Source: Haliotis rufescens (Eukaryota). Taken from it: a DNA stretch of 64,000 nucleotides. A model generated the notes under the pieces. It worked only from the letters and a program-made list of their open reading frames with translations, did not search any database and was not told where the DNA came from. The stretch lies in NCBI RefSeq assembly GCF_023055435.1, contig NW_025963868.1, forward strand, positions 22,754,001-22,818,000. The letters run 5' to 3'. Below, in pieces: positions 1,175 to 50,213 of the stretch; the stretch's first letter is position 1, and every line of letters starts with the position of its first letter. The position numbers were made by a program, and so were the translations under genes.

Positions 1175-1294
1175 CTATGCCCAGTCTCCTGTACGGCGCC
1201 AGACAGCCCAGAGTCATAATGTAAAGTCTTCTCTGGTTCTCGGACGTGTCGATCCTACAGCATACTGCTCCTATAACTATGTCATTGTAGTAGG
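1175..1294 (-). CDS. NAA50: NAA50 coding exon 3
   Basis: tttcag|AYYNDIVIGAVCCRIDTSENQRRLYIMTLGCLAPYRRLGIG|gtaagt; includes the GNAT acetyl-CoA motif RRLGIG. Confidence 0.96.
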
Positions 1295-2310
1295 CTGAAA
1301 CACAGAGTGAGTGAGTGAGTTGTTATTAACAGTATTATGGAACTACAGCACACTGCTCCTATAACTATGTCATTGTAGTAGGCTGAAACACAGAGTGAGT
1401 GAGTGAGTTGTTATTAACAGTATTATGGAACTACAGCACACTGCTCCTATAACTATGTCATTGTAGTAGGCTGAAACACAGAGTGAGTGAGTGAGTTGTT
1501 ATTAACAGTATTATGGAACTACAGCACACTGCTCCTATAACTATGTCATTGTAGTAGGCTGAAACACAGAGTGAGTGAGTGAGTTGTTATTAACAGTATT
1601 ATGGAACTACAGCACACTGCTCCTATAACTATGTCATTGTAGTAGGCTGAAACACAGAGTGAGTGAGTGAGTTGTTATTAACAGTATTATGGAACTACAG
1701 CACACTGCTCCTATAACTATGTCATTGTAGTAGGCTGAAACACAGAGTGAGTGAGTGAGTTGTTATTAACAGTATTATGGAACTACAGCACACTGCTCCT
1801 ATAACTATGTCATTGTAGTAGGCTGAAACACAGAGTGAGTGAGTGAGTTGTTATTAACAGTATTATGGAACTACAGCACACTGCTCCTATAACTATGTCA
1901 TTGTAGTAGGCTGAAACACAGAGTGAGTGAGTGAGTTGTTATTAACAGTATTATGGAACTACAGCACACTGCTCCTATAACTATGTCATTGTAGTAGGCT
2001 GGAACACAGAGTGAGTGAGTGAGTTGTTATTAACAGTATTATGGAACTACAGCACACTGCTCCTATAACTATGTCATTGTAGTAGGCTGAAACACAGAGT
2101 GAGTGAGTGAGTTGTTATTAACAGTATTATGGAACTACAGCACACTGCTCCTATAACTATGTCATTGTAGTAGGCTGGAACACAGAGTGAGTGAGTGAGT
2201 TGTTATTAACAGTATTATGGAACTACAGCACACTGCTCCTATAACTATGTCATTGTAGTAGGCTGGAACACAGAGTGAGTGAGTGAGTTGTTATTAACAG
2301 TATTTTGGAA
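1255..2310. repeat. Tandem array, 88 bp x 12, overlapping the NAA50 exon 3 acceptor
   Basis: Unit CTACAGCACACTGCTCC...GAGTGAGTGAGTTGTTATTAACAGTATTATGGAA; near-identical copies. Confidence 0.97.
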
Positions 2311-5042
2311 CAGTTTTCAATTATATCACGGTGTGTCAGCTTAATGTGGGAGGAAAGCCATGAGCACAAATCTGTACTGAAATACTCAAATTCATCATGT
2401 AATTACACTGTCTGGTTGTAGAACGAGTTCATAATATATCTGCACTTATGTTGGTAATCTATATTATTAATTGTATTCAACAATTCATTCAATATTGTCA
2501 CCGTTATTTACAGCAACCACGCTCATATTATCGCTTTTGATGCTAGAGAATGGATATATATATCATAAATGCCATACATTTAATCGCTGAAAGTCATACT
2601 TGTTGTAGTTTGACAATTATATGTCAACATTAAGTTTTCGCAATCGTTGGCGCATGGACGGTGATTGGTCTAATTCTTCCATTCGAAAACATTTCAGCTG
2701 AACCAAAGTGCTACGCTTATGGTTATTAATTTATTTCACATGTATAAAGTAAATATGCAACTACACATGATATTGGAATAAATTATTCCTGATAAAATAA
2801 TAGTTTCAGATGCAATTCTTCCGCTCATTGTATTAAAATTCTTTAAAGTTATATTATTGGCCGAATCACTGATAGATTCCGAGAAACGTTTGTACAGCTG
2901 AATGCTACTTCCGGCTTAGTTTACGAGACAAGACACACGGTAATGTTAATCTCTGCATATAAAACAATGCCAATCAGAACAGGAAACAATTTAGTCGGCT
3001 AATCATTATGTTTAGTGATGTTTTATCTCAAATTTCAAATTTGTATTGACCAAGTTTATTTGATATAATCTGTTCAGTTTCCCTGAATTCGCTGAAGGGC
3101 TACGATGTAACTTTGCGGAAGACACACACATTTTTATTGCAAATGTAGAGATTTTGTATGCACTAGTGATGTGCTTTATTCTGATTCGCCAGAGTATATA
3201 AATTAGTATTGATTTCCCGCTTATTTTACGAGACAAATAACCTCTGCGTATGAAACATTGTCCCTCATACAGTACACAAATAACATTGACTTTGTATTTG
3301 AATACCATCATCATGTCTAGTGATGTTGTATCGCAAACTGAATGTTTTTATTGACCAAATTTGCAAACAGCAAAGCAAGCACACAAACTCCCATTGCCGC
3401 CATGACTATAACACACGAGATGCGCAGTAAAGCAGTGCGCATGAGAAGGGAAGTAACTGCATGTTATATTGGATCGCATTGTTTTTAAGTATTGCAGCAT
3501 TTCACAGTTTAGGTCGTGTGGTCGCGACGCGAAACATTTAAGGATATTATTTTTTGGAAAATGGAAATAAAAACGAAACGTGCGGCGGACTTTACGATGA
3601 TGTGGTGGTGCCTGACAACCAAGAATTCTTTTTTAGCCTTATAAATCTGTTTTTGAACAAATCAATGGCTATATTCACATAAGCATGATAAGTATATGCT
3701 TTGAATGAATTCAGCCTGTCTGTTACCATCACGGTTTCCCCTTGTCTATCTTTAGTGCAAGCAAATCACATTTCGCTTTGCTTCGAGGTTAACTATCTAT
3801 TTGTAGCAAACAACGAAAAAAGAGAAAAATGTGACTGAATTTTATGTAAATGACATGCAAATTTAACAAAGTTACCTGAGAGATGACGTCATTGTATGGA
3901 ACATAATGTAAAAAGAATTAAAACCAGGTAATTTTCATACTTTTTTTTATTTGCTAAAAGTTGAGACAGACAAAATTTAGGGGTGAACTGGTAGTTTCAA
4001 AAGTCAACGGAAACACTGGCAACTCTGCACAGTGAATTGCAATGCCTTAGACGACTGGGCGACCCGAACAGTGAGTGACGACACACTTACTGACCTATAC
4101 ACCTGCAGACTTTTGGTATATCTAAACAAGTATTTATCTAGGATATAACAAACTTAAATGAAGTAACAAATGATCAACAAAAAATGAATTAATTATTTTA
4201 CCATGAATCATGATGAATTCAGAATATACCAGATTCTGATTGGTCTAGCAGAGGTTTCAAATCACAATAACCAGCAGTGTTTAAAACAACTGATTTGATG
4301 ACTGTATTGCTGTGGGAGAATATGTTTCAAGAAAGGTACTCTTCCAATCACTGTTGGTTTGCATTTTGAAATATCATGTTATTTTCAACGTACAAAATGA
4401 AGGTCCTCCAATATTCAAAGTATGTTTGGCTATACATCTTGAGCAGAAAACAAAACACAAATTGACCTAGAGTATATTTCAAGTTTTAGGGAGATCTTGA
4501 ATTTTTTTCAAGCCTACTAAGACGTGTTCCAATCAGCTGAGTGAGTCACATCACAGGTGAGCAGCTTAGAACTAAACACTGCCAGGATTGATTAACCATG
4601 TACTTCAAAACAAATCCAACTCTTGAAAAACTTATATTTCTCCATTTGCTTCTACTTCTACCATGTTCTACAATTTGTTCAAAATATGAGATGAGTCGAG
4701 ACTGAACACTAATATTCATCAGTCCTTGGTATCGAAAGAAACAAAAGACTGGACTATGCGAAGACTGTTTCTGAAGGAGTGATCAAATGAGTGAGTATGG
4801 TTTTACGCTGCTTTGAGCAATATTCCAGCAATATCACAGCAGGGGGACACCAGAAGTGGGCTTCACACATTGTACCCATGTGGGCATTCTACGTGGCATT
4901 ACTACCCACTTGAAGCCTTCTATAACTGGACATATCATTTTGGACCATTTTTGGCCACCAACTGTTGGGTTAGGCTTGCTGCATAACCAACATAGACAAG
5001 CCATGACCAAATCTGACCATGCAAGAAAACAAAGGCTTTTAC

Positions 5043-6352: not shown

Positions 6353-6616
6353 GTTGGTTTGTTGTTAAGCGCTGCACTCAGCAATATTCCAGCTATATGA
6401 CAGCGGTCTGTAAATAATCAAGTTTGGACCAAACAATCCAGTGATTGTTATCATGAGCATCGACCAACACAATAAGGAAACGATGACATGCATCAACCAA
6501 GTCAGCGAGCCTGACCACCCGATCCCGTTAGTCGCCTTTTACGACAAGCATAGTCACCTTTGACAGCAAGCATTGGTTGCTGAAGACCTATTCTAACCCG
6601 GATCTTCACGGGTCTC
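6353..6616 (-). mobile_element. Family C full-length copy, nested in an older family C copy
   Basis: 5' end GAGACCCGTGAAGATCCGGGTTAGAATAGG. Confidence 0.88.
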
Positions 6617-7267: not shown

Positions 7268-8454
7268 CCCGATCCCAGTAGTCGCCTCTTATGACAAGCA
7301 TGGGTTGCTGAAGAACCAATTCTAACCCAGATCTTCATGGGGTATATCAAAATGAAGCATGGGTACCCAGGCCTAGAACAACTTCCCACCCACCCACATT
7401 ATCAGTCAACGTGATTATTGTACATATTATTCTTTCTGATTCTGTCCTTCAGCACACAGTTATGTCCTCTTCTAATGTTCGTGTATAACATCAGGGTCAG
7501 AACACTGACATACTCCATCAGGTGAGCATGTAAAGTCTCATCTTAATACAATGAAGTTCGCACCTAATGGGACTGTGTCCAACTATAACATCACCTAAGG
7601 AGAGTGAAATAAAATTTTATTTAGATTTATTTATCGCATAGATCTATGCAAGGTTTGTGCATGAAGTTGTATGTATAAGCCTCCCAAACAAATGTCCCCC
7701 CACGTTAAATTATGCGGTGATTTTGTTAAATGTTGGTAATTCAAGGATGGCAATATACTCTTGCAACCAAACAATCACACGCTGATAGTCGTCACTCATC
7801 TCAAGTAGATTGTTTACTGTGTTCGTGTTGAATCACGGTGTAAATCCGTAATGTAAGTCCCCACGGTCCCCAGTAATGTGCCCTAAGTTTGGTTTCTGGT
7901 GATCTATAGCACATTTTTATAATGTATTGTTGATTGAAAATGTATTCTTTTAACTGTTCTCAACTAGTTTTAAATTCGAAACTGTGATAGTTATCTAACT
8001 GTCCATCGTTGACAGATTCTTATTAAATGAAATTATAATTAATATGACTGTTTCGTCGCTGAAATATTGCCGATGTGACGTTAAATTTCACTCGCTCTCC
8101 TGCTTCTGAGATGTTTTCCTGGTTTGGCCAGTCAATGTATGGAGGAACCGTGTGAGCTGAACTGCCTTATTTCGCAGCCGTGGTAATACCACTATCGCCC
8201 TACTACCCCATTGACTTTAATATAATCATCATTTTTACGAGATCAGGCTCGATATCAACAGAGGCGCACATATCAAAATGAAATCCTCAACACGACTCTT
8301 CACCCAAACATGACTGATCAAGTCTAGATTTTCCGACATCACGTCATTCATTATTGAGGAACGATGCTATTTGCTGAATGAAGGGTTAGAAAAACTGCCT
8401 TTCTTAACACATTTTAAGTTTTACTGTATCAATCTCCAGATTTTAAATTACAAC

Positions 8455-17911: not shown

Positions 17912-19179
17912 GTATCCTTCCACCCAGTTATGTGGAGCAGGGGGGGGGAGTGCACTAACCAATGGGCGAGAAGTGACCACAATGAATACTAGTCATAGCT
18001 TCATGGGTGCTCCAAGCAGTGTCTGTGTTTATTCTCATGTAAATGCAATCAATTTGTTTTTTATTGTTATCACATTTTAAAAAAATGACAGTGAAAAATA
18101 GAGAAATTGAAATTTTTTTTTTGCCTCTGTTAGTGTTAAAGAAAATAACTTTTCATTACAATCACCATGATCACCGACGCAAGGCACTGAGAAAAAAGAA
18201 CCTGCGAACTAAAGTGAAATACAGGCAGGCTTAAGGTGTTGTAATGACATGTGTCTATGTTCACCTAACTAATGAAATGAGGCCTAAGTCAAATGAACAA
18301 TACTGAAATCAGTGCCAGCTCCACCATTACTTGATACTGCTGTGTGAGACTTTTAATGTAATCTGGGTGCTTATTGTCCTGAGTACTTGCTGGCCCAACT
18401 TGAGCAGGGCTGTCTGGAACTGTTGGTTATAAAAATCAACTTGCATCACCGGGCTTTGTTGTTAATGACATTGTAAATACTTGACAAGATTATCAATTAA
18501 TATTTCCCTTAGCATTCCATTGTGAATTTTAGAATTTTTAAAGGAAACTTCAGTTCAGTCAATCAGTACTTGATAACATATTGTATTTCTGTACTATGCA
18601 ATTAGTAATATCAGGTCACCTGCTTGATTTTATAAAGTAGCCACGTGGCAAGTGCTTAAATAATATTGGTCGCCAAGTAAAAATTTCAATCGCCGTGGCG
18701 ACCTCATAAGTTGTAACTTTGAGGCCAGCACTGCAAGCAGTCTGTATGTATTCACGATGTAGGAATGTAGTGTGTACACAACCTGTGAAGTACTGACAAA
18801 GAAGGGCACCTGCGAGGTAGTCCTTCATGCCAGCACTGCAAGCAGTCTGTATGTATTCACGATGTAGGAATGTAGTGTGTACACAACCTGTGATGTACTG
18901 ACAATGAAGGGCACCTGCGAGGTAGTCCTTCATGCCAGCACTGCAAGCAGTCTGTATGTATTCACGATGTAGGAATGTAGTGTGTACACAACCTGTGATG
19001 TACTGACAATGAAGGGCACCTGCCAGGTAGTCCTTCATGCCAGCACTGCAAGCAGTCTGTATGTATTCACGATGTAGGAATGTAGTGTGTACACAACCTG
19101 TGATGTACTGACAATGAAGGGCACCTGCGAGGTAGTCCTTCATGCCAGCATCTGCTTGTTTCCTCCTTGACTCCCTCAG
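17912..19179 (+). other. ATP6V1A: U12-type (minor spliceosome) GT-AG intron
   Basis: 5' site GTATCCTT; branch TCCTTGAC at 19164-19171, about 10 nt before the acceptor CAG. Confidence 0.88.
18724..19150. repeat. Tandem array, 105 bp x 4, inside the U12 intron
   Basis: Units start at 18724, 18829, 18934 and 19039. Confidence 0.96.
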
Positions 19180-19269: not shown

Positions 19270-19580
19270 GTAAGTTCGGAGTCAATGTATCTCTTTCATC
19301 AATTTTGACGTAGTTTTGTTTGTTTTGTTGTTTGTTGTTTAACACCACATTCAGCAATATTCCAGTTATATGACGGCGGTCTGTATGACAGACTCCCCGT
19401 ATTGGTTTAATTTGTGAAGACCCTTTCCGTGATGAAAAATTCCTGGAATAATGTGACTGGCATGAAATAACTTTCTCCCATTCACTGATTCACTCACTCA
19501 AAGTGGTGTTAAACTCTGATGTGATATTGCTGGAATATTACTGAAAGTAACGTATAACCTCACTCACCCACTATGTGCAG

Positions 19581-19702
19581 GTATCCAGCGTCCGTTGGAG
19601 GACATCTCAGAGCTGACACAGAGTATCTACATCCCCAAGGGAATCAACACGCCAGCCCTCGACCGCTCCAAGAAGTGGGACTTTGAGCCCCTCAACATCA
19701 AG
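19581..19702 (+). CDS. ATP6V1A: ATP6V1A exon 5
   Basis: [41 protein letters not shown]. Confidence 0.96.
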
Positions 19703-22003: not shown

Positions 22004-22956
22004 TTATGTCTCCCCCAGAATGGAGGGAGACATATTGTTTTTGGCACGGTTCCCGTCGGCATCGGCGTCGGCGTTCCCACCGTTTCCGGACCATAACTCA
22101 GAAACCGTTTAATATTTTTTCGCGAAACTTTGTATACACATTAACCCAGCACTGAAGTGGTGCCTTTTGCTATTTAGAGATTTTTGACATTTTTATTTTT
22201 TCTCGTTTCCATGGAGATAACTTGAACATAGACTCTGAATGGGGGTAAGCTTTGTTTCCTGACCATAACTCAGAAACCGTTTAATATTTTTTCGCGAAAC
22301 TTTATATACACATTAACCCAGCACTAAAGTGGTGCCTTTTGCTATTTAGAGATTTTTGACATTTTTATTTTTTCTCGTTTCCATGGAGATAACTTGAACA
22401 TAGACTCTGAATGGGGGTAAGCTTGGTTTCCGGACCATAACTCGGAAACCGTTTAATATTTTTTCGCGAAACTTTGTATACACATTAACCCAGCACTGAA
22501 GTGGTGCCTTTTGCTATTACAGTTTCCATGACATCACATTTGTCATTGTGTAGAAGACCTGCAGAGTCAGATACACGGGCAATTACATCACAGAGACTTT
22601 CCTTTGTGCCATATAACATTGCTACATCATTTCTGATATGTTGGGGATATTAATATATTTGTGTCCAAACTCTATTAGAACTTTAAGTGGATTTTCTACA
22701 AATACTTCAGTAACAAGAAAACTGTGCTACTTAGATGACTACACTGTCAGGTGGGTAAATGATTGAGGGATTAGTGGTGTTGATTAGACGCTGAAGTGGT
22801 GCCAATTAGTTGTTTGAAATTTCTAGGAGTTCCATTTTGTATCTGTTATTTAGTAATGGAGGGTGGGTATGAAGAGATTGGGTTAACGTGAAGTAAACAA
22901 ATGAATGGGGAGTGGGGGGAGACATATGTTTTTACGAGTAAAAACACTTTCTAGTT
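22004..22956 (+). mobile_element. Non-autonomous Helentron/DINE-like element with 172-bp internal tandem repeats
   Basis: subTIR TATGTCTCCCC / GGGGAGACATA; 5' inverted repeat; 3' hairpin TGTTTTTAC-GA-GTAAAAACA followed by CTAGTT. Confidence 0.75.
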
Positions 22957-23073: not shown

Positions 23074-23735
<662 letters not shown>

Positions 23736-23798
23736 AGCTCTGTCATGCACAGTGTGACCCTGGGGTGTTGTTGGTCACTGTTGATGCACTATTACCCA

Positions 23799-26047: not shown

Positions 26048-26341
26048 TTTTTGAACAGACGCATCTTTATCATTGCTTGTCACAGAAGTCAAGCTGATTG
26101 ACCTGTTGCTGACTGGTGGCTCAAAGAAGTTGCAATTTGCTGTGCAGAGTTGCATCCCTTAGCTTTGTCAGAAAACACTGATCATGGGTTCAAATCCCTG
26201 TTCACTCTGTGCTTGGAGGTTTGCCAGCACTTGTGCCCATAGGTTTCACCAACAAGGAAAGACCTGTATCACAAGCTGACTCACTGTGATGTAACTGAAC
26301 TACTGTTCAAAGTGTTGATCTCACTTTCTCTCTCTCCTTTT

Positions 26342-26627
26342 GGGGGCACGGGTGGCCCAGTCGTCTAATGCGCTGTGATTAGCTGTGCAGAGTTGCGTTC
26401 CTTGGGCACGCCAGAAACCTATGATTGTGGGTTCGAATCCCGGTTCGCCCTGATTATGTTTCTAGGTTTGTCAGCACCATACCCGTGCTCATGGATTTGA
26501 CTGAAGTGGTAAATGTCTGAGACCTGCATCACTTCGGGCTTTCCTCCCACATTAAGCTCATAAGCCGTGATATAACTGGAAGACTGTTACAAGCGGTGTT
26601 AAACCCAACTCACTCACTCACTCACTC
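26342..26627 (+). mobile_element. tRNA-derived SINE family B (~280 bp, (ACTC)n tail)
   Basis: A-box-like TGGCCCAGTCG, B box GGTTCGAATCCC, core GGGCTTTCCTCCCAC; similar copies at 39585 and 60209. Confidence 0.9.
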
Positions 26628-26644
26628 TCTCTTTTTGTACACAG

Positions 26645-26739
26645 GGCTCTCTGGCAGAACCAGACAAGATCCTCCTTGAGGTTGCCAAACTCATCAAGGA
26701 CGATTACCTGCAGCAGAACGGCTACACTCCGTACGACAG
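26645..26739 (+). CDS. ATP6V1A: ATP6V1A exon 13
   Basis: [32 protein letters not shown]. Confidence 0.96.
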
Positions 26740-27294: not shown

Positions 27295-27436
27295 TTGTTC
27301 GCTCGTCACCCTGAAGACATGAGTTCGATGCCTCACATGGGTATGCTGTGTTGCCCATTTCTGGTGGCCCCTGGGGTGATATTGCTTGAATGTTGCTAAA
27401 AGCAGCATAAACCCATACTCACTCACTCACTCACTC
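27295..27436 (+). mobile_element. SINE family A copy ending 14 nt before ATP6V1A exon 14
   Basis: Degenerate body plus (ACTC)n tail. Confidence 0.85.
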
Positions 27437-27450
27437 GCTCTGTTCCCCAG

Positions 27451-27622
27451 GTTCTGCCCCTTCTACAAGACGGTGGGCATGTTGAAGAACATCATCGCAT
27501 TCTACGACCTGGCCCGGCACGCCGTGGAGAGCACGGCACAGAGCGAGAACAAAATCACCTGGGCCATCATCCGAGACCAGATGAACGACATCCTCTACAA
27601 ACTCAGCAGTATGAAGTTCAAG
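27451..27622 (+). CDS. ATP6V1A: ATP6V1A exon 14
   Basis: [57 protein letters not shown]. Confidence 0.97.
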
Positions 27623-28001: not shown

Positions 28002-28315
28002 GACCCCCTTCGTGGTTTAGTGGATAGCGTGGAATTCAGAATGTCGGTGGTTTGATCTCCGTGTCATACCAAGAGACGTTAAAAGATGTTGCCTTGCCTG
28101 GCGCTCGGCAGTAGGGGCTAAAACAAGGACTGGTCATTTGGAGTCAGTACACTGTGTCTGAGTGGGGTATTCATGTTAAGCAGCGGCATGGTATCTCAGT
28201 GAGCTAGCACTATAAATCGGCATCAGTCCGGACTAGCTCTTTATCATTAGTACAAGCAGTGCCACCATGTTGCTATAAACGTGCAATAATCTTAATGTTA
28301 AACCCCATTTCACCT
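28002..28315 (+). mobile_element. SINE family D copy
   Basis: Core shared with the 50987 copy. Confidence 0.7.
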
Positions 28316-28429
28316 CACCTGCTTCCTAGACGCATGACCACACAATCTTCTGAATCTTGTACTGGGCTACATATTATAATACTATCACAATGCTATTTTG
28401 AAAATTGTAGCAGTTTGATGGCACAACAG

Positions 28430-31691: not shown

Positions 31692-31864
31692 AGGGGGCGG
31701 TCGGGTAGCCTAGTGGTTAAAGCGTTCGCTCGTCACGCCGAAGACCCGGGTTCGATTCCCGACATGGGTACAATGTGTGAAGCCCATTTCTGGTGTCCCC
31801 CGCCGTGATATTGCTGGAATATTGCTAAAAGCGGCGTAAAACCAAACTCACTCACACACACTCA
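31692..31864 (+). mobile_element. tRNA-derived SINE family A (~165 bp, (ACTC)n tail), full length with 19-bp TSD
   Basis: A box TAGCCTAGTGG, B box GGTTCGATTCC; TSD CACTGTAGCAAATCTTCCA on both sides. Confidence 0.93.
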
Positions 31865-32848
31865 CACTGTAGCAAATCTTCCACTTGCTGTTACTGACGG
31901 CAAGGCTTATGCAGATATGCGGGTTCCATTTAAAGGTTGTTTCTTCTGAAGTGGGTTTAGCAGTACGTTGGTGCACAGAGAATGAGTGCCACCCCCTTTC
32001 ATACGCCTGATGCCAAGCCCGGCGAAGCAGGATGCCATGAAATGTTTATCTTGTATGCGGATTTCAAAATTTGAAGCTTATTTTGAGTGTCAAATCAATA
32101 AAATATTTATCCCAAAGCTCATGAGCATGCATGGTCATGCATTCTACACGAAAATTCCAGTCTAATTTACTCGAAAGTTCTTAAACTGGATGCCAAAACA
32201 AATTAAGTAGTGTTCCAATTCCAAGAGGTTGAGGGTCGGCACCCACAAGGACCATAACTAGGGCAAAACTGGGATTAAAACAGCCACAATCAGCACATCC
32301 TGGGGTGGCTAAGGGAAACCACTCTGCAAAGAACCTTAGGCCACTGAGCCATCCATTTACGCATATTCACATCAGACAAAAATGAAAACAACACCATGAG
32401 TTCATAAAATACATTTTATATAGCTCTAAATAGCAGGATATAGTAGTGAAAACAGAAATATGAAATCTGTCACAAGCAATGAAAATATACACGTAGGCCT
32501 GCTATACACCACACAATGTTATAGTTAAATACATGGCTACATGTGTTAGCACCATCAAAATCAGGTAAAAATCGCAACAATCGTTCAAAGCTACAGTGAC
32601 ATGAAAAAGGCTTCCACCACATCTCCACTTCCCAGTGACTAGTTTTATCCACTGCGTTCTGTGTTCACTTGACAGATATTTTTGACAGTTGATAATATTA
32701 CAAAATAGGTAGATGTTCTGACTGACAAAATCATTCAAATCTGGAATCAATGTTTGTCAACAAAAATTCATGAGACAAGATTCTTCACAATCGAAGGCAT
32801 ATGGTTCTTATATTTTACTTGGCATATGGAATCGCCAACCAGGTCTTA

Positions 32849-36738: not shown

Positions 36739-37830
36739 GCCAGCAAGCCTGATCCCGTTAGTCACCTCTTACAAGCATAGTTACCTCTTATGGCAAGCGT
36801 GGGTTGTGCAGTCAGGTAAGAGTGTCGATACATTGTACATACATAGGGACTTGAACAAGAGTAACGAACATGTGCACAGTAGGATCAGGATGAACGTATG
36901 CCATGGATATCAGTGCAACATTTTCAGTAATTCTCACAGGGTATATATATCTGTATCATGCTAGTTGGCAATCAACACCAAATGTCCGACTGTTTCACTT
37001 TTGCTCGCAGCAATGTGTCATCATAGCAATGGGTTTTCGCAAATAATCCAAGATGCCATCTTTGAAGTCACAGGTGGTTTTTTGTAACATCGTTCCAGCA
37101 TCAGACAGACAGCTGATGTCTCCATTTGTGATTGAAATCCCCCCTTTTATCAGAACACAAGGCCATGGGGAAATATATGGAGGAAAATATACCAGCAACA
37201 CGGAAGTACAGATTGTCTCTCCCTCCTGCAATATTTGATACTCATTCCTTGTGATTATTTGTACATTTGTTTGTATACTGAGTGAGTGAGTTAAAGTTTA
37301 ACGTCACATCGGCAATATTTCAGCCATATCGTGACGAATGTTTGTATACTGACACTGCCAACATCTTTGTCTGGAATGTGAGCTGACTACAGGTTTCACT
37401 CCAGGTACATCTATTTTCAGTGAAATAATAGATATTGTTTTGCTCTGCGACACAAAAGCAAGTTTAGAAGTACACATTATATGTAGGACATTGTTGCAAG
37501 ACAATAAAAATATCACTCCTGGCTGAATAATTGAACGAAATGGAAAGGAAAGATACAGTATGTTTTCTCATTTTTCACATTACCCTTCCAGCTCAGCTGT
37601 CCTCTATATTTTCATTGCTTTTCCTTGAAGTTTATTTGAACTTTGAATTTGGCACTGACCGTTGTTCCAATAATTGACCTTGACCTATATCATCCCTTTG
37701 ACCTTGATCTTTATCATCCCTTTGACCTTGGCATTCCATGTTTTGTCTTATCCCACGTCATCAAAGAAGATCAAAGTCACTCTCAGGAATTCTTACAGAT
37801 ACATCACAAGGTCAAGGTCAAGGTCAAGGA

Positions 37831-37978
37831 TCACCTTGATTGTTTGGCATCACGGGTTGGTGTCCTCTTCGGTGTTGCTTGGTTACCAGATGGGTTCCTG
37901 GTTTTGTTGGTCATGGATCGGTGGAACACTGCATTTGTGATAACCCTCACTGGTGTGAACAGCTTTAATGGGAACTCA
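37831..37978 (-). CDS. EI24: EI24 last coding exon
   Basis: FEFPLKLFTPVRVITNAVFHRS...AKQSR-TGA; phase matches the previous exon. Confidence 0.9.
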
Positions 37979-37995
37979 CTACAAGGAGAATACAA

Positions 37996-38225
37996 ATGAA
38001 TGAATGAATGAATGAATGAATGAATGAATGAACAACGTTTAATGTTGCACTTAGTAATGCACTTAGTAATGCAATATGACAGCGGTTTGTATATAATCCA
38101 GTGATTGACAGCATGAGCATTGTTACACACAATCGGGTTGCAATGACACACAATCAACAAATCACCAAGTCGGACCACCCGATACACTTTATAACCCCTT
38201 ATGACAAGTATAGGTTGCTCAGAAA
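37996..38225 (-). mobile_element. Degenerate family C copy with a (TTCA)n tail next to the EI24 last-exon acceptor
   Basis: Diverged consensus match. Confidence 0.75.
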
Positions 38226-39079
38226 GCATCATGCTGTATGAAGCCAACCAGACAATTGCAACTTGTTGAAAATAATGCCACTTCATAGTAGCTCATCTGA
38301 ACATGCAGTCAACAGTCTAAAATGTCAACAATTACACACATTTAACAAAAGTTCTCAGCGTTCATTTACTCAAATAGTTTTGCTATTGTGAGTGAGTGAG
38401 TGAGTGAGTACCCCCGCCCCGCCCACGCATTGTACCCATGTCAGGAATTGAATCTTGATCTTCAGCATGATGAGCGAATGCTTTAACCACTAGGCTACCC
38501 CACCACCCCCGATAGTACTGAGGAAAAACTAACACAATAATCTGGTTACATGAAGAAAATATGTTATAAGGATAAACATAAACAAAAAAGTTCAGCTCCC
38601 TCAGTCTGTTAATTTCAGAGACTTAGCTCACAGAGCCAAATATGCACTTGATAGACTTCAATAGTATGTTTAAAACAGAGTCAACTAGTTTCTGCAGAAA
38701 ATGTTCTGAAACCCATAATTCTGACCATCAACATCAAATCACTGCCCCACTACATTATCAATCTTCTCAGTGAGGGATCAAGGACAGATAACTCTGGTTG
38801 GTAACTATGGACAACGGGCAGGGGCACAGGTCATGTTTTTCCACTATAATGTATTGATTTTCCAGGCCAACAGGTGTATAAAAGATGACAGTGAGTTAGT
38901 ATGGTTTTAACAATGTTCCAGCAAAATATACCATGGCGGGGTACACTGACTTTACAAATTGTACCCATGTGGAGAAACAAACCTGGGCCTTCGACTTAGC
39001 AGGCAAACGCTTTAACCACTAGGCTACCCAATGCCCCCACAACATAGGTGAGAGAACTAAAGTGTCAACTACTACTCAC

Positions 39080-39861: not shown

Positions 39862-41091
39862 TACATGTAGTCAGGATGAACTAGTTGGCTGATCCTGGCA
39901 TAAGCTAGGGACACAACTCTTCACAGTTTTATTTAGGAAATCATGTCACTATCTCCTCTATCTCTGACTTAACTTTTGAAGCATCGTTCCCTTTGAAACT
40001 GCCTCAAAATGTAGCTATAGTAGAGACTGGGTCCAGGCTATTTATCACAAATGAATGGAGACATATAATACCCTAGATAGTCGAGGATGGGAGACGGGGG
40101 AATGGCCTTCACATACTGTACCAGTGTGGGCATCTATGTCATGACAGGTGAACTATTTTAGCAACACTCCAGCAAAAGCACAATGAATAAGCTTCACATG
40201 TTGGTGCAGTGGCTGTGTCTTCAGCATGACGAGTTAAATCCACTACTCAAGCACCCTGTCTGCAGTGCAACCCTGTTTATGTGGACACCTCTCTTTGTGT
40301 CATAAAAACTTTCGTCTGAACCCTTCAACTTGATTTCCAGCTAATTGAAAATTATTTTCATTGTAAGATGTCATATTTTAATGAATATCATCAGGCGAAT
40401 CTAGACTCAGACATCTGAAGTTACGTCTGTTTGCAATAGGTCTGGAAAAGGCAAAGCGGTTGTTGATAGCATGACCAACTTTCCACACAGTCAGCCAGTG
40501 ACAGAGCCTTACCACCTAGGTAGGTTTGGACAATAACCATGATTGAATTGGGTTTAAAACCACTTTATGCAAAATTATAGCAATTATTACGTCAGGCTCA
40601 CCAGTGATGGGTATCACACATTGTATTTACGTAGGGAATCAAATCCAGGCCGTTGGTTTGACGATCAAACGCTTTAACCACTAGGCTATCCCACCTTCCA
40701 ACAACTGGTATTGTCAACAGGGCTTGATTTAAGGAACAAGATCTAATTTGCACCAGGTGCATGCTGACATGAAAACAACATTGCACTCAACACAACCAGG
40801 TTGCACATGGTCCCATATAATTACAAAGTTGAAACATAGGCCGGGCTGCTGCTAGTGTCACATTAATTACTAACAAATTGCTGTAAAACGTGATAGGAAC
40901 ATGTGCACATAATCTTGAAGTACCCACGGTGTGATGACGTCAAGCCCAAGACCAAATAACACATAATACAGGGACTAGTGATCTAGCATGGAAAATAAAC
41001 TTTAGATGAATTGAATGTGTTCAGAAATTGATTTTGTGAGGGGACAAGGAATTAGCCAGACACAATCTTTTTATTTTTTTACATGCAACAC

Positions 41092-41686
41092 CAATCTCAT
41101 TAAAATCAGATCTTAGATCTCGCTATTGCTAAACAAAGATCTGAGGACATCCCATAACGGGTCATGTCAGAACGACCTGTCATCCGACAAATCAAAGCGT
41201 CGCTTACCAGATCATGAAAGTGACAGTCGGAATGTGTTTCCTAATCAAGCAACCTCGAAAACGTTAACACAGGGTATTCCGAACGACAGTTACTGCCTGT
41301 ACGACTGATTCCGTCAAAATCATCGTCTATCTTTCGCTTCCGTGGGAAAAACATTTGAACGGAAGAGGCGTTGCACAGTACGTGGGAAGCACTGCCATAC
41401 AATCTCAACCATATATTAGACATTCCAGAATGTTTGTTTGTTCTTTCAAAATTTTAATTGAGAACTGTGTCAACATATCTTATAAGCGGAGTCTGAAATG
41501 GAAGTCGCCAGGTTGAAACAAGTGCTGTAAAGATTGAGAAAGCTGCTTTCTAATTGGCTGATGTCGACTTCTTGTTAGTCATTTCAGTGGTTGGGCGATA
41601 GTTCGTTCTGACGTGATCCGTAATAGGATGTCCTCAGATCTATGTTTAGCAGCAGCGAGAACTAAGATCTGATTTTAGTGAGATTG
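41092..41686. mobile_element. MITE family 2 copy (fragments also at ~44165-44600 and ~59284-59560)
   Basis: Same TIRs; opposite orientation to the 14049 copy. Confidence 0.88.
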
Positions 41687-41858
41687 GCATGTACACATGA
41701 ATATTAGGTTACATTTTTCAATAATAGGCTTCACAGGTGCATGTTTTATGTTGCTAAATCGAGCCCTGGTTGATAACAAGATATCAAAGGATTAGAGAAA
41801 TACGCCTGAAGATTTTTCCATTTTTATGTTCACAGAATGTCCGCTGCTTGTTACCAAC

Positions 41859-45006: not shown

Positions 45007-45840
45007 CTGAAAATTAAATCAAATCTTAAATCCATCATGAAACATGCATTTTAGTCAGACAAATAACTTGTAGATAATAGCAGGTCATTATACCTGGGCA
45101 GAAAAGATCCCAGTGCCCAAGGCTCTCTTGAAGCATGGAAGTTATCACAACAGCAGTGTTACAGGCGATTTTGTGCACTCTGGTAGAGGTTAAAAACACC
45201 AAAAGCAATAGGAGACACTTTGTCACAATACATTGGTAAATGTATCTACATTATCCCTAGTAAAGTTATTTTCTTTTGAGCAAACTCAGGTAAAATGGCC
45301 TACATGAAACATGATGAAAACGATTAGGGGCGAAACGATACATCGGTGTACCTTGAGTTTTCATGTGACTATAGGATACATGATACATGATACATGATCC
45401 ATTAAGACGATACACTTGCTAAAATAAATTACATACTGGTTTGATGACCCCCAGGATTTCTGTCTTTCAAATATTGCAAAATGTGTTGTGATTAGCATTT
45501 CAAGTTCACTGCTAAAAGTAACCACTACGAATTTTTTCTACAGCCAGCTTTCTCTTTTGAACCTATACTGAAATATTTAAAGACAATAAGTTTCCATGCG
45601 ATTTGACATAGATATGCAAAATAGCTCTGTGACCTGAGATAAAGCTCCAATGACCTGAGATGAGCTCCGTGTGCTATGCTATGACTTGTATACATATTAA
45701 ACTAGATATTTAATAGATAATACTTAAAACGTTTTCGCTACCTAAAATTTTGGCTTATCTTAGGAAAAAAGAGGCTACCTGGAAAAAAGAACTTGTAGCC
45801 AAATGGCTACTAGTTAAAAAATTAAACTTTGAGGCCTGCC

Positions 45841-46418
45841 CACACTGACCTGAGACGAGTTCCGTGAACCTCACATTGACCTGAGATTAGCTCCGTGAAC
45901 CCCACATTGACCTGAGATGAGCTCCGTGAACCCCACATTGACCTGAGATGAGCTCCGTGAACCCCACACTGACCTGAGATGAGCTCCGTGAACCCCACAT
46001 TGACCTGAGATGAGCTCCGTGAACCCCACACTGACCTGAGATGAGCTCTGTGAACCCCACACTGACCTGAGATGAGCTCCGTGAACCCCACACTGAGCTC
46101 CGTGAACCCCACATTGACCTGAGACGAGCTACGTGAACCCCACACTGACCTGAGATGAACTTCATGAACCACACACTGACCTGAGACGAGCTCCGTGAAC
46201 CACACACTGACCTGAGACGAGCTCCGTGAACCCCACACTGACCTGAGATGAGCTCCGTGAACCACACACTGACCTGAGACGAGCTCCGTGAACCCCACAC
46301 TGACCTGAGATGAGCTCCGTGAACCCCACACTGACCTGAGATGAGCTCCGTGAACCCCACACTGACCTGAGATGAGCTCCATGAACCCCACACTGACCTG
46401 AGATGAGCTCCGTGAACC
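45841..46418. repeat. Minisatellite, 31 bp x ~18.5, overlapping the EI24 exon 3 donor
   Basis: Unit CACTGACCTGAGATGAGCTCCGTGAACCCCA. Confidence 0.96.
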
Positions 46419-46464
46419 AGTAGATACAGGGCAGCAGCATGTAGTGGAACACGAAGATGCTGAG
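46398..46464 (-). CDS. EI24: EI24 coding exon 3
   Basis: LSIFVFHYMLLPCIYWFTELIS|gtcagt; this donor is tandemly duplicated downstream. Confidence 0.88.
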
Positions 46465-47404
46465 CTGAAATACAGTAAAGCTTCCAATAAACTCCTCACA
46501 ACACTTTGGTGGTGTTAAATAAATTGGTTGGTTGATGGATCTGCCTAGCAAACATTTAACAAATCTGCGAAATAAATATCTGTTTTTCTGCCTGTCAAGT
46601 GTGTTAACCCTTTCTGTAAAAAAACAACTTCAATGTAAGACAATTATTAAGATCAATGTTGACTCAACTAAGTATTCCATGGACAAAAAAACCAGTTATT
46701 ACAGTTGATTTGCTGTTTGCATATACGAGCATATAGTATTTGCCAGTGGGACATTTGTCCAATGCCCTAAAAAGTGGCCATTTCCCCGTAAACATGTATA
46801 AGCACCATATGGTATACCCCTTCAAGTCAACATTTCCCCACTGATCCAACAAAGCCAGTTCAATCTGACAGCCACCTTGAGTCGAGTCTGTAAATATCCC
46901 CATAAGGGGCCTGGTTGGTGTAATCCCAAATTTTTACAAAATACGAAATTTCATATACCAGAACCATAACTATGGTAACCACAAGCAAGTGCATCAATCT
47001 TGATTTCTCTCCCACATTATACTGATACATCATGCTATATTTAATAGTCACACACTATGGGAGTGAAATAAAAACACTGAAGACCAGCAGCACAAGTTAT
47101 CTCCCCTGTGACAATGGCCCCTGTACCACTGTTGGGTTATTCTTACCGAGCAGATACCACCACTCCACATACAGAACATGAATATTATGTGCAGAACAAA
47201 GCCTCTGAGGTGATGCACAGGATGTGATGTGATGTGATGGGGCATGAGTCAGAACGCTGAGGTTTTACATTTCTGACCCACAATCGCTGAAGGTTTACAC
47301 CCTAGCACAAACAAGGAAGGAGTGCTTCCCTGGCATAGACGTCATGGGAAATGGACAAATATGTCATAATAGAAGATGCATTAAGTATCGAGCAAAAACA
47401 TATA

Positions 47405-48808: not shown

Positions 48809-48869
48809 CCAGCAGACGCCACCATTCCATGCACAACACATGAAAATTCGATTTGTTACTCTGGGAACA
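48809..48869 (-). CDS. EI24: EI24 coding exon 2
   Basis: [21 protein letters not shown]. Confidence 0.94.
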
Positions 48870-49789: not shown

Positions 49790-50213
49790 CCCCTGTTGCA
49801 GAATTTATGACATAATTAAATCTACCGGTAAACAAACCCTAACCTTTTTTAACCAAGGTGGAAAAAATAAAAATTTCTAAATTTCAAAAAAGCAAAAGGC
49901 ACCAGTTCAGCATGTACCTGACAAACCTGCAAATTTTCATAAAAAAAATATTGAACGGTTTATTATGAGTTATGGTCCGGAAACGAACCCTACCCTCACA
50001 GAACCTAAGTCCATCTTGTTGCCATAGAAACGTAAAAAACAAAAATTTCTAAATAGCAAAAGGCACAAGTTCAGCATGTACCAGACAGACCTGCAAAGTT
50101 TCATGAAAAAATATTGAACGGTTTCTGAGTTATGCTCCGGAAACGAAACGTGACGGACGGACGAAACCCGTTTCTATATCCCCCACCAACTTTGTTGGGC
50201 GGGGGATAAAAAA
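49790..50213 (-). mobile_element. Related Helentron/DINE-like element fragment
   Basis: Internal repeat similar to the 22004 element; GACG microsatellite; terminal inverted repeat TATCCCCC...GGGGGATA. Confidence 0.65.

What the first reader, a model, noticed from the sequence alone, without database searches (positions are those of the whole stretch)
26608..26644. SINE tails occupy the branch-point region of five different 3' splice sites
Seen: sense-oriented SINE tails end about 10-18 nt before the exon at NAA50 exon 3 (1295-1320), ATP6V1A exon 5 (19559-19580), exon 13 (26608-26644), exon 14 (27416-27450) and the EI24 last exon ((TTCA)n, 37979-38030). That is 5 of about 29 acceptors in the window. 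Established: CTCAC and TTCAT fit the metazoan branch consensus yUnAy. At 26342 the upstream flank (CTCACTTTCTCTCTCTCC) resembles the tail and the downstream pyrimidine tract. Inference: these SINEs target, or are tolerated at, branch-point/pyrimidine tracts because their tails regenerate the splicing signal.
Basis: partly seen in the sequence, partly recalled or inferred. Interest (0 to 1): 0.7.

Follow-up and report, generated by a model that had tools for sequence, protein, structure and literature searches.

The report
Sense-biased SINEs fill splice branch sites
In this animal genome, likely an abalone's, short jumping elements inside introns face the same way as the host gene about 85% of the time, and the few that sit right before an exon likely survive because their repeat tail would replace the splicing branch point, not because they aim for it.

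Summary
All five tails are real, sense-oriented, end 8-17 nt before the intron end and carry the only branch-point-like motifs there (5 of 28 acceptors). The window is a high fluctuation: in 674 homology-called introns from 51 other loci, 20 (3%) have a sense SINE end within 35 nt (14.3 expected, p=0.08). Branch points are not targeted: target-site duplications (about 13 nt) share mostly 0-3 nt with the tail. Tolerance has moderate support. (ACTC)n-tailed copies end 7-21 nt from the intron end 10 times (3.1 expected; bin chosen after looking), (AAAC)n-tailed copies once; 0 of 73 antisense copies lie within 60 nt (5.4 expected). Against it, (AAAC)n tails with no consensus motif sit at 22-34 nt. 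No lariat data. The robust result is wider: intronic SINEs are 425 sense to 73 antisense, in four families and three gene classes, rising from 77% (young) to 94% (old), while most other repeat families are near even. In mouse and dog introns SINEs lean antisense. The cause is open; co-oriented insertion plus later purging is my best guess. The scan noted single SINE/LINE-at-acceptor cases before, here and in cartilaginous fishes, but not this bias.

The parts
26342..26627 (+). Young full-length family B SINE (6% from consensus) with (ACTC)n tail ending 17 nt before the end of ATP6V1A intron 12
   Evidence: thousands of candidates genome-wide at 92-94% identity among those scored
26329..26341 (+). 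Upstream copy of the 13-nt target-site duplication; the downstream copy overlaps the tail end and forms the pyrimidine tract
26115..26327 (+). Older family B copy whose decayed CTCAC tail lay at about -27 from the same acceptor before the young copy landed (reconstruction inferred)
26645..26739 (+). ATP6V1A exon 13, spliced to exons 12 and 14
   Evidence: RNA-like contigs; open frame
27295..27436 (+). Family A SINE (16% diverged), (ACTC)n tail ending 14 nt before the exon 14 acceptor at 27451
   Evidence: also in contigs of organism B (record 16)
19505..19572 (+). 3' remnant of family A (22% diverged) ending 8 nt before the exon 5 acceptor at 19581
   Evidence: junction
37995..38228 (-). Family C SINE with a rare (TTCA)n tail ending 16 nt before the EI24 last-exon acceptor at 37978
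   Evidence: this tail unit in 1 of 357 other C copies
2273..2360 (-). 3' part of a family B SINE at the head of the NAA50 tandem array
1255..2311 (-). 88-bp x12 array, each unit = SINE tail + AG + first 40 nt of NAA50 exon 3; only the last acceptor (1294) gives an open frame among the five tried
31693..31867 (+). Reference young family A copy: tRNA-like head, shared 3' core, tail, 19-nt duplication
   Evidence: Rfam tRNA match 31699-31770
6354..6613 (-). Reference family C copy (LP-SINE-like, (AAAC)n/(AAC)n tail), sense in NAA50 intron 1
28007..28320 (+). Reference family D copy (MESC-like: internal (CA)n, (CACCT)n end), sense in ATP6V1A intron 14
   Evidence: description in PMC4758252

Best explanation
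These are ordinary SINE copies that sit mostly in the host gene's sense and that likely survive in the last 10-20 bases of an intron because the target-site duplication keeps the pyrimidine tract and AG in place while the AG-free (ACTC)n tail would put branch adenosines where the displaced native ones were. Shown: positions, sense orientation, 13-nt duplications with short tail overlap, host branch-motif peak at -21 to -25, normal ATP6V1A junctions, no antisense copy within 60 nt of an acceptor, and an 85% sense share that rises with age. Inferred: insertion by target-primed reverse transcription with a LINE's enzymes; branching inside the tail; loss of antisense and of poorly fitting copies by selection. 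For the genome-wide sense bias I commit, with less confidence (about 0.45), to insertion that is already co-oriented with host transcription, followed by extra loss of antisense copies; selection alone against antisense RNA pairing (about 0.35) or cryptic exons (about 0.2) are the alternatives.
For: Host yTnAy count 165 at -25..-21 against 59-97 in the other full 5-nt bins, CTCAC 21 against 3-14 (604 acceptors). All five window cases have only tail-derived motifs. A/B ends at 7-21 nt: 10 against 3.1 expected, p=0.0009, or 4.4 after the target-motif correction, p=0.015; family C 1 against 2.5, shifted to 22-34 nt (7 against 2.2). The one family C copy at 16 nt in the window has the rare (TTCA)n tail (1 of 357 elsewhere). 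Exon 13 took two successive B insertions. Antisense 0 of 73 within 60 nt, 5.4 expected, p=0.003. Orientation 301:54 dynein, 63:10 myosin, 61:9 DEAD-box, 34:7 window; 43:13 in copies under 5% diverged, 149:10 over 20%. Reversed DNA gives 0 hits; 7 of the 9 other repeat families with 11 or more copies are near even.
Against: The 7-21 nt bin was chosen after and many bins were tested; the 0-35 nt bin gives 20 against 14.3 (p=0.08), A/B alone 12 against 7.2 (p=0.055). The donor side shows an excess of like size (A/B heads 21 against 12.4 within 60 nt, p=0.008), so the uniform null is imperfect. The branch motif is weak here (39% of acceptors against 24% background) and 11 of 18 near-acceptor copies, all 7 family C among them, have no yTnAy at -12..-39, so any adenosine-rich, AG-free end may do. 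The held-out DEAD-box set is too small to test the bin (1 against 0.2). No lariat reads; no empty site was seen. Cryptic-exon scores are higher antisense only for family A, lower for B, equal for C and D; inverted pairs are depleted only at 3 kb (47 against 63), not at 0.3 or 1 kb.
Confidence: 0.58

Rival explanations
1. The tail sequence does not matter. SINEs are dense (about 0.65 per kb of intron) and 85% sense, the host branch motif is loose, and any sense 3' end without AG is tolerated; five cases in one window are a lucky draw.
For: 0-35 nt excess not significant; (AAAC)n tails at 22-34 nt without yTnAy; like-sized excess near donors; 2 of 70 in housekeeping DEAD-box introns.
Against: A/B against C contrast at 0-21 nt, Fisher p=0.011; rare (TTCA)n tail at EI24; CTCAC peaks at the host branch position.
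Confidence: 0.27
2. The SINEs target branch points or pyrimidine tracts, by tail-target pairing or by docking on the spliceosome.
For: 60 of 92 young A/B duplications overlap the tail by 2 nt or more and targets start T/C-rich; the motif predicts 1.4-fold more hits at 9-23 nt from the AG.
Against: Only 7 of 92 overlap by 5 nt or more; 8 of 66 upstream copies hold a CTnAy-type word; 97% of acceptors have no SINE end within 35 nt; near-acceptor copies are mostly old; the flank at 26342 is an older SINE tail.
Confidence: 0.07
3. Exaptation: the tail gives a better, redundant branch site than the native one and such insertions are favoured.
For: About 3-fold excess at 7-21 nt; two window copies are shared with a second organism; tails offer 2-6 candidate adenosines.
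Against: Small counts; tails at acceptors decay like others (4 of 11 A/B cases lost the motif); tolerance plus a weak target preference covers part of the excess.
Confidence: 0.08

Closest known systems
Transposon under-representation zones near mammalian exons (Zhang et al. 2011, PMC3088655; passages read)
   Same: Orientation and distance to splice sites filter intronic SINEs; human SINEs are sense-biased 20-200 bp from exons, put down to cryptic acceptors in antisense Alu.
   Different: There SINEs of both orientations are depleted within 100 bp, more so at acceptors. Here sense copies show no depletion beyond 7 nt, and the sense bias holds along the whole intron.
Intronic SINE orientation bias in mouse strains (PMC3446317; passages) and dog (bioRxiv 10.1101/2020.10.27.358119; passages)
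   Same: A strand bias of intronic SINEs read as selection.
   Different: Direction and size: 41.6% sense in mouse and an antisense excess in dog, against 85% sense here, rising with age.
Canine merle SINEC_Cf at the PMEL intron 10/exon 11 boundary (PMC7349775; passages)
   Same: SINE at a 3' splice site, 15-bp duplication of the acceptor region, tail serving as a splice signal.
   Different: Merle is antisense, its poly(T) acts as pyrimidine tract and causes exonization and a phenotype; here the copies are sense, the tail mimics the branch site and junctions look normal.
MIR/AluSp-derived branch point in BLOC1S2 (PMC6822395; abstract and outline only)
   Same: Two successive SINE insertions supplying branch-point sequence.
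   Different: It makes a new alternative exon; here existing coding exons keep their acceptors.
Haliotis LP-SINE (Hdi_LP) and MESC/HalSINE1 families (PMC4758252, passages, section 10 and supplement hits; PMC4824008, passages)
   Same: Family C fits LP-SINE in length (261 against 255), non-tRNA head and shared tail; family D fits MESC in its internal (CA)n and (CACCT)n end.
   Different: No sequence alignment was possible (figures not held, supplement file 1 not searched); families A and B matched no named family in what I saw; the word 'intron' does not occur in PMC4758252's main text.

Membership tests
tRNA-derived SINE (families A, B) | tRNA-related head | tested here: inconclusive
   Rfam tRNA at threshold for two family A copies; no hit for B; ARAGORN none
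tRNA-derived SINE (families A, B) | Short, high-copy, interspersed | tested here: met
   165 and 281 bp models; 4513 candidates for B
tRNA-derived SINE (families A, B) | Target-site duplications and 3' tandem repeat | tested here: met
   161 of 277 young full-length A-D copies, median 13 nt; (ACTC)n ends
tRNA-derived SINE (families A, B) | 3' end shared with a partner LINE | tested here: inconclusive
   A, B and C share a 3' core; no LINE frame ending in it among long frames of the fetched DNA
tRNA-derived SINE (families A, B) | RNA polymerase III transcription | not testable with these tools
   needs transcription assays
U2-type branch point | yUnAy motif at the organism's branch position | tested here: met
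   host peak -21 to -25; tail adenosines at or within 2 nt of it in all five cases
U2-type branch point | Lariat formed at the tail adenosine | not testable with these tools
   only contigs and miRNA-size raw reads were listed
Site-specific (targeted) retroelement | Conserved target sequence | tested here: not met
   targets share only a T/C-rich 2-3 nt start
Mammalian-type exclusion zone near acceptors | Both orientations depleted within about 100 nt | tested here: not met
   sense 32 against 24.6 within 60 nt; antisense 0 against 5.4
LP-SINE (family C) and MESC SINE (family D) | Sequence homology to the published head or core domain | not tested
   published consensus not available as text; match by described features only

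The most novel reading that the evidence does not exclude
The SINE-mobilising LINE machinery of this genome inserts co-directionally with host transcription, nicking the template strand of active genes, and the (ACTC)n tail is a splice-neutral adaptation that carries its own branch site, letting the elements colonise the one intronic zone that is closed to SINEs in mammals and come to supply branch points for about 2% of exons.
Probability: 0.2. Interest if true: 0.8.

Novelty: new variant of a known kind. Interest (0 to 1): 0.5.

Why it matters
Intronic SINEs lean antisense in mouse and dog and are purged near acceptors. A genome where four SINE families are 85% sense, with controls near even, gives a clean case to separate insertion preference from selection, an old question for orientation bias. 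It also suggests that a retroelement's terminal repeat can decide whether it survives at a 3' splice site. The five-in-one-window pattern itself overstates the effect; about 3% of acceptors are involved.

Tried and rejected
Antisense tails read GTGAGT, so I looked for antisense copies supplying donors: no (GAGT)n run within 60 nt of a donor among 448 introns. Raw (GAGT)n counts there were inflated by one minisatellite. Cryptic splice signals as the sole cause of the sense bias: not consistent across families. Strand composition: the target motif predicts 51-54% sense and 5-mer asymmetry is weak or opposite. Promoter collision: headless copies are as biased as full-length ones. Inverted-pair avoidance: inconclusive; the distance test was dropped because split fragments biased it. 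Empty orthologous site at exon 13: contigs of both organisms stop 32-35 letters upstream of the laid stretch, as at a repeat; no empty allele seen, which proves nothing. No RNA holder was listed on record; RNA-like contigs were used only for junctions. Partner LINE not found. One of 18 dynein loci was not fetched; 7 of 28 DEAD-family loci gave no called intron. Hits under 25 bits were dropped before all counts from then on. One family B copy near the last ATP6V1A exon runs into N, so its tail was not scored. Ten literature searches (listings seen) showed no paper on sense bias of mollusc SINEs; the library lacks most subscription papers.

Full report
Setting. The window lies in a 1.33-Gb animal genome. 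It is likely an abalone: family D and family C fit published descriptions of Haliotis SINEs; this is inference. ATP6V1A exons join into one open frame and RNA-like contigs show GT-AG joins at nine listed introns and at exons 13 and 14. I count 28 acceptors.

The elements. Four families were built from the window and 1 Mb of the genome: A (165 bp, tRNA-like head) and B (281 bp), both ending in (ACTC)n; C (261 bp, mostly (AAAC)n); D (345 bp, (CACCT)n). A, B and C share a 3' core. Of 277 young full-length copies 161 have a target-site duplication, median 13 nt; for A/B its start overlaps the tail by 0-1 nt in 32, 2-4 nt in 53 and 5 or more in 7 of 92. That is short priming homology, not a target sequence.

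The observation. All five tails are there, in sense, 8-17 nt before the intron end, and hold the only yTnAy motifs of the region. At NAA50 the tail, AG and exon start are repeated 12 times in an 88-bp array, and only the last acceptor gave an open frame among five tried. At EI24 the copy is family C with a (TTCA)n tail, seen in 1 of 357 other C copies.

Independent test. I located dynein heavy chain, myosin and DEAD-box loci, fetched 1.95 Mb, and called introns by joining protein matches at GT-AG with no score for branch point or pyrimidine tract: 532 introns in 17 dynein loci, 72 in 13 myosin loci, 70 in 21 of 28 DEAD-family loci. The unscored pyrimidine tract appears in the logos, so most calls are real. 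SINE hits under 25 bits were dropped; reversed DNA gave none. The host branch motif peaks at -21 to -25 and CTCAC peaks with it, but the motif is loose: 39% of acceptors against 24% background.

Near acceptors. 20 of 674 acceptors (3%) have a sense 3' end within 35 nt; placing each copy evenly in its own intron gives 14.3 (p=0.08). The window's 5 of 28 is thus a high draw (p=0.0013 before allowing for its selection), and housekeeping DEAD-box introns show 2 of 70. Split by family, A/B ends fall at 7-21 nt 10 times against 3.1 (4.4 with the target motif, p=0.015), C once against 2.5 but 7 times against 2.2 at 22-34 nt. These bins were drawn after the first look. Antisense copies are absent within 60 nt (0 of 73, 5.4 expected). 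Against a tail-specific role: in the 604-intron set 7 of 18 near-acceptor copies carry a SINE-derived yTnAy and 11 carry none, and A/B heads are also in excess within 60 nt of donors (21 against 12.4).

The larger signal. Of 498 SINEs in called introns 425 are sense: 301:54, 63:10 and 61:9 in the three gene classes, 34:7 in the window, in plus- and minus-strand genes, in all four families. The sense share is 43 of 56 below 5% divergence and 226 of 243 above 15% (Fisher p=0.0009). The target motif predicts 51-54%. Of nine other repeat families with 11 or more intronic copies, seven are near even (13:11, 15:9, 10:10, 9:6, 8:6, 7:5, 6:5), one is 14:4 and one 15:0; I call the last Helentron-like from recall, untested. 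Cryptic-exon scores, 5-mer composition, head loss and inverted-pair spacing do not explain the bias. A 77% share in the youngest class points to biased insertion or very fast purging; the age trend points to further selection, or to older bursts with a stronger bias.

Mechanism. Inferred: a LINE enzyme nicks, the tail primes with 2-3 nt of homology, and about 13 nt are duplicated. An insertion 10-20 nt before the AG leaves tract and AG intact but pushes the native branch point 165-290 nt away; a sense (ACTC)n tail has no AG and offers CTCAC every four bases at the right distance, so splicing would go on. Branching in the tail is not shown.

Comparison. Mammalian SINEs are depleted within 100 bp of exons, human ones sense-biased only near exons (PMC3088655, passages); mouse variants are 41.6% sense (PMC3446317, passages); dog SINEs lean antisense (bioRxiv 10.1101/2020.10.27.358119, passages); a five-species survey reports antisense biases for several classes (PMC2911107, passages; its additional file was not seen and may hold SINE orientation counts). 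Single SINEs acting at acceptors are known (merle, PMC7349775, passages; BLOC1S2, PMC6822395, abstract), and this scan has noted such single cases. My ten searches listed no report of a strong sense bias in mollusc SINEs, and a look-up in earlier findings gave none. Verdict: observation confirmed, targeting rejected, tolerance likely, frequency overstated; the sense bias is the part worth following up.

Noticed in passing
window 1255-2311 (minus): Twelve tandem copies of the NAA50 exon 3 acceptor; the spliceosome would have to skip eleven decoys. 6 of 604 dynein/myosin acceptors are also locally duplicated.
   Followed up: partly
window 45839-46419 (minus): A 62-bp array repeats the end and donor of an EI24 exon; a donor-like word occurs 18 times in 45801-46480.
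   Followed up: partly
window 48809-48869 and about 47146-47205 (minus): EI24 seems to have a duplicated short exon with similar translation, possibly mutually exclusive.
   Followed up: no
window 49861-50147 and 22081-22518; related copies in 13 genes: A non-SINE repeat, Helentron-like by recall, is strongly one-sided in orientation (9:0 in called introns; what appears to be the same family 15:0); a terminal-inverted-repeat element (41091-41687) is 13:4.
   Followed up: partly
dynein loci on contigs C605 and C68 (L033-L038, L090-L096): Sense SINEs 7-8 nt behind a donor whose target-site duplication copies the exon end and GT, the mirror case of the acceptor insertions.
   Followed up: partly
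window 37279-37340 (minus) and 8051-8105: A very short (about 60 bp) element with the shared 3' core and (ACTC)n tail but no body, with duplications at some copies; 8 of 10 blast hits look like it.
   Followed up: partly
G000 C113 12.86-14.29 Mb: A tandem cluster of more than a dozen closely spaced myosin-head genes.
   Followed up: no
window 18724-19155 and 23266-23745: Minisatellites ending 25 nt before the exon 4 acceptor and starting right at the exon 9 donor of ATP6V1A.
   Followed up: no
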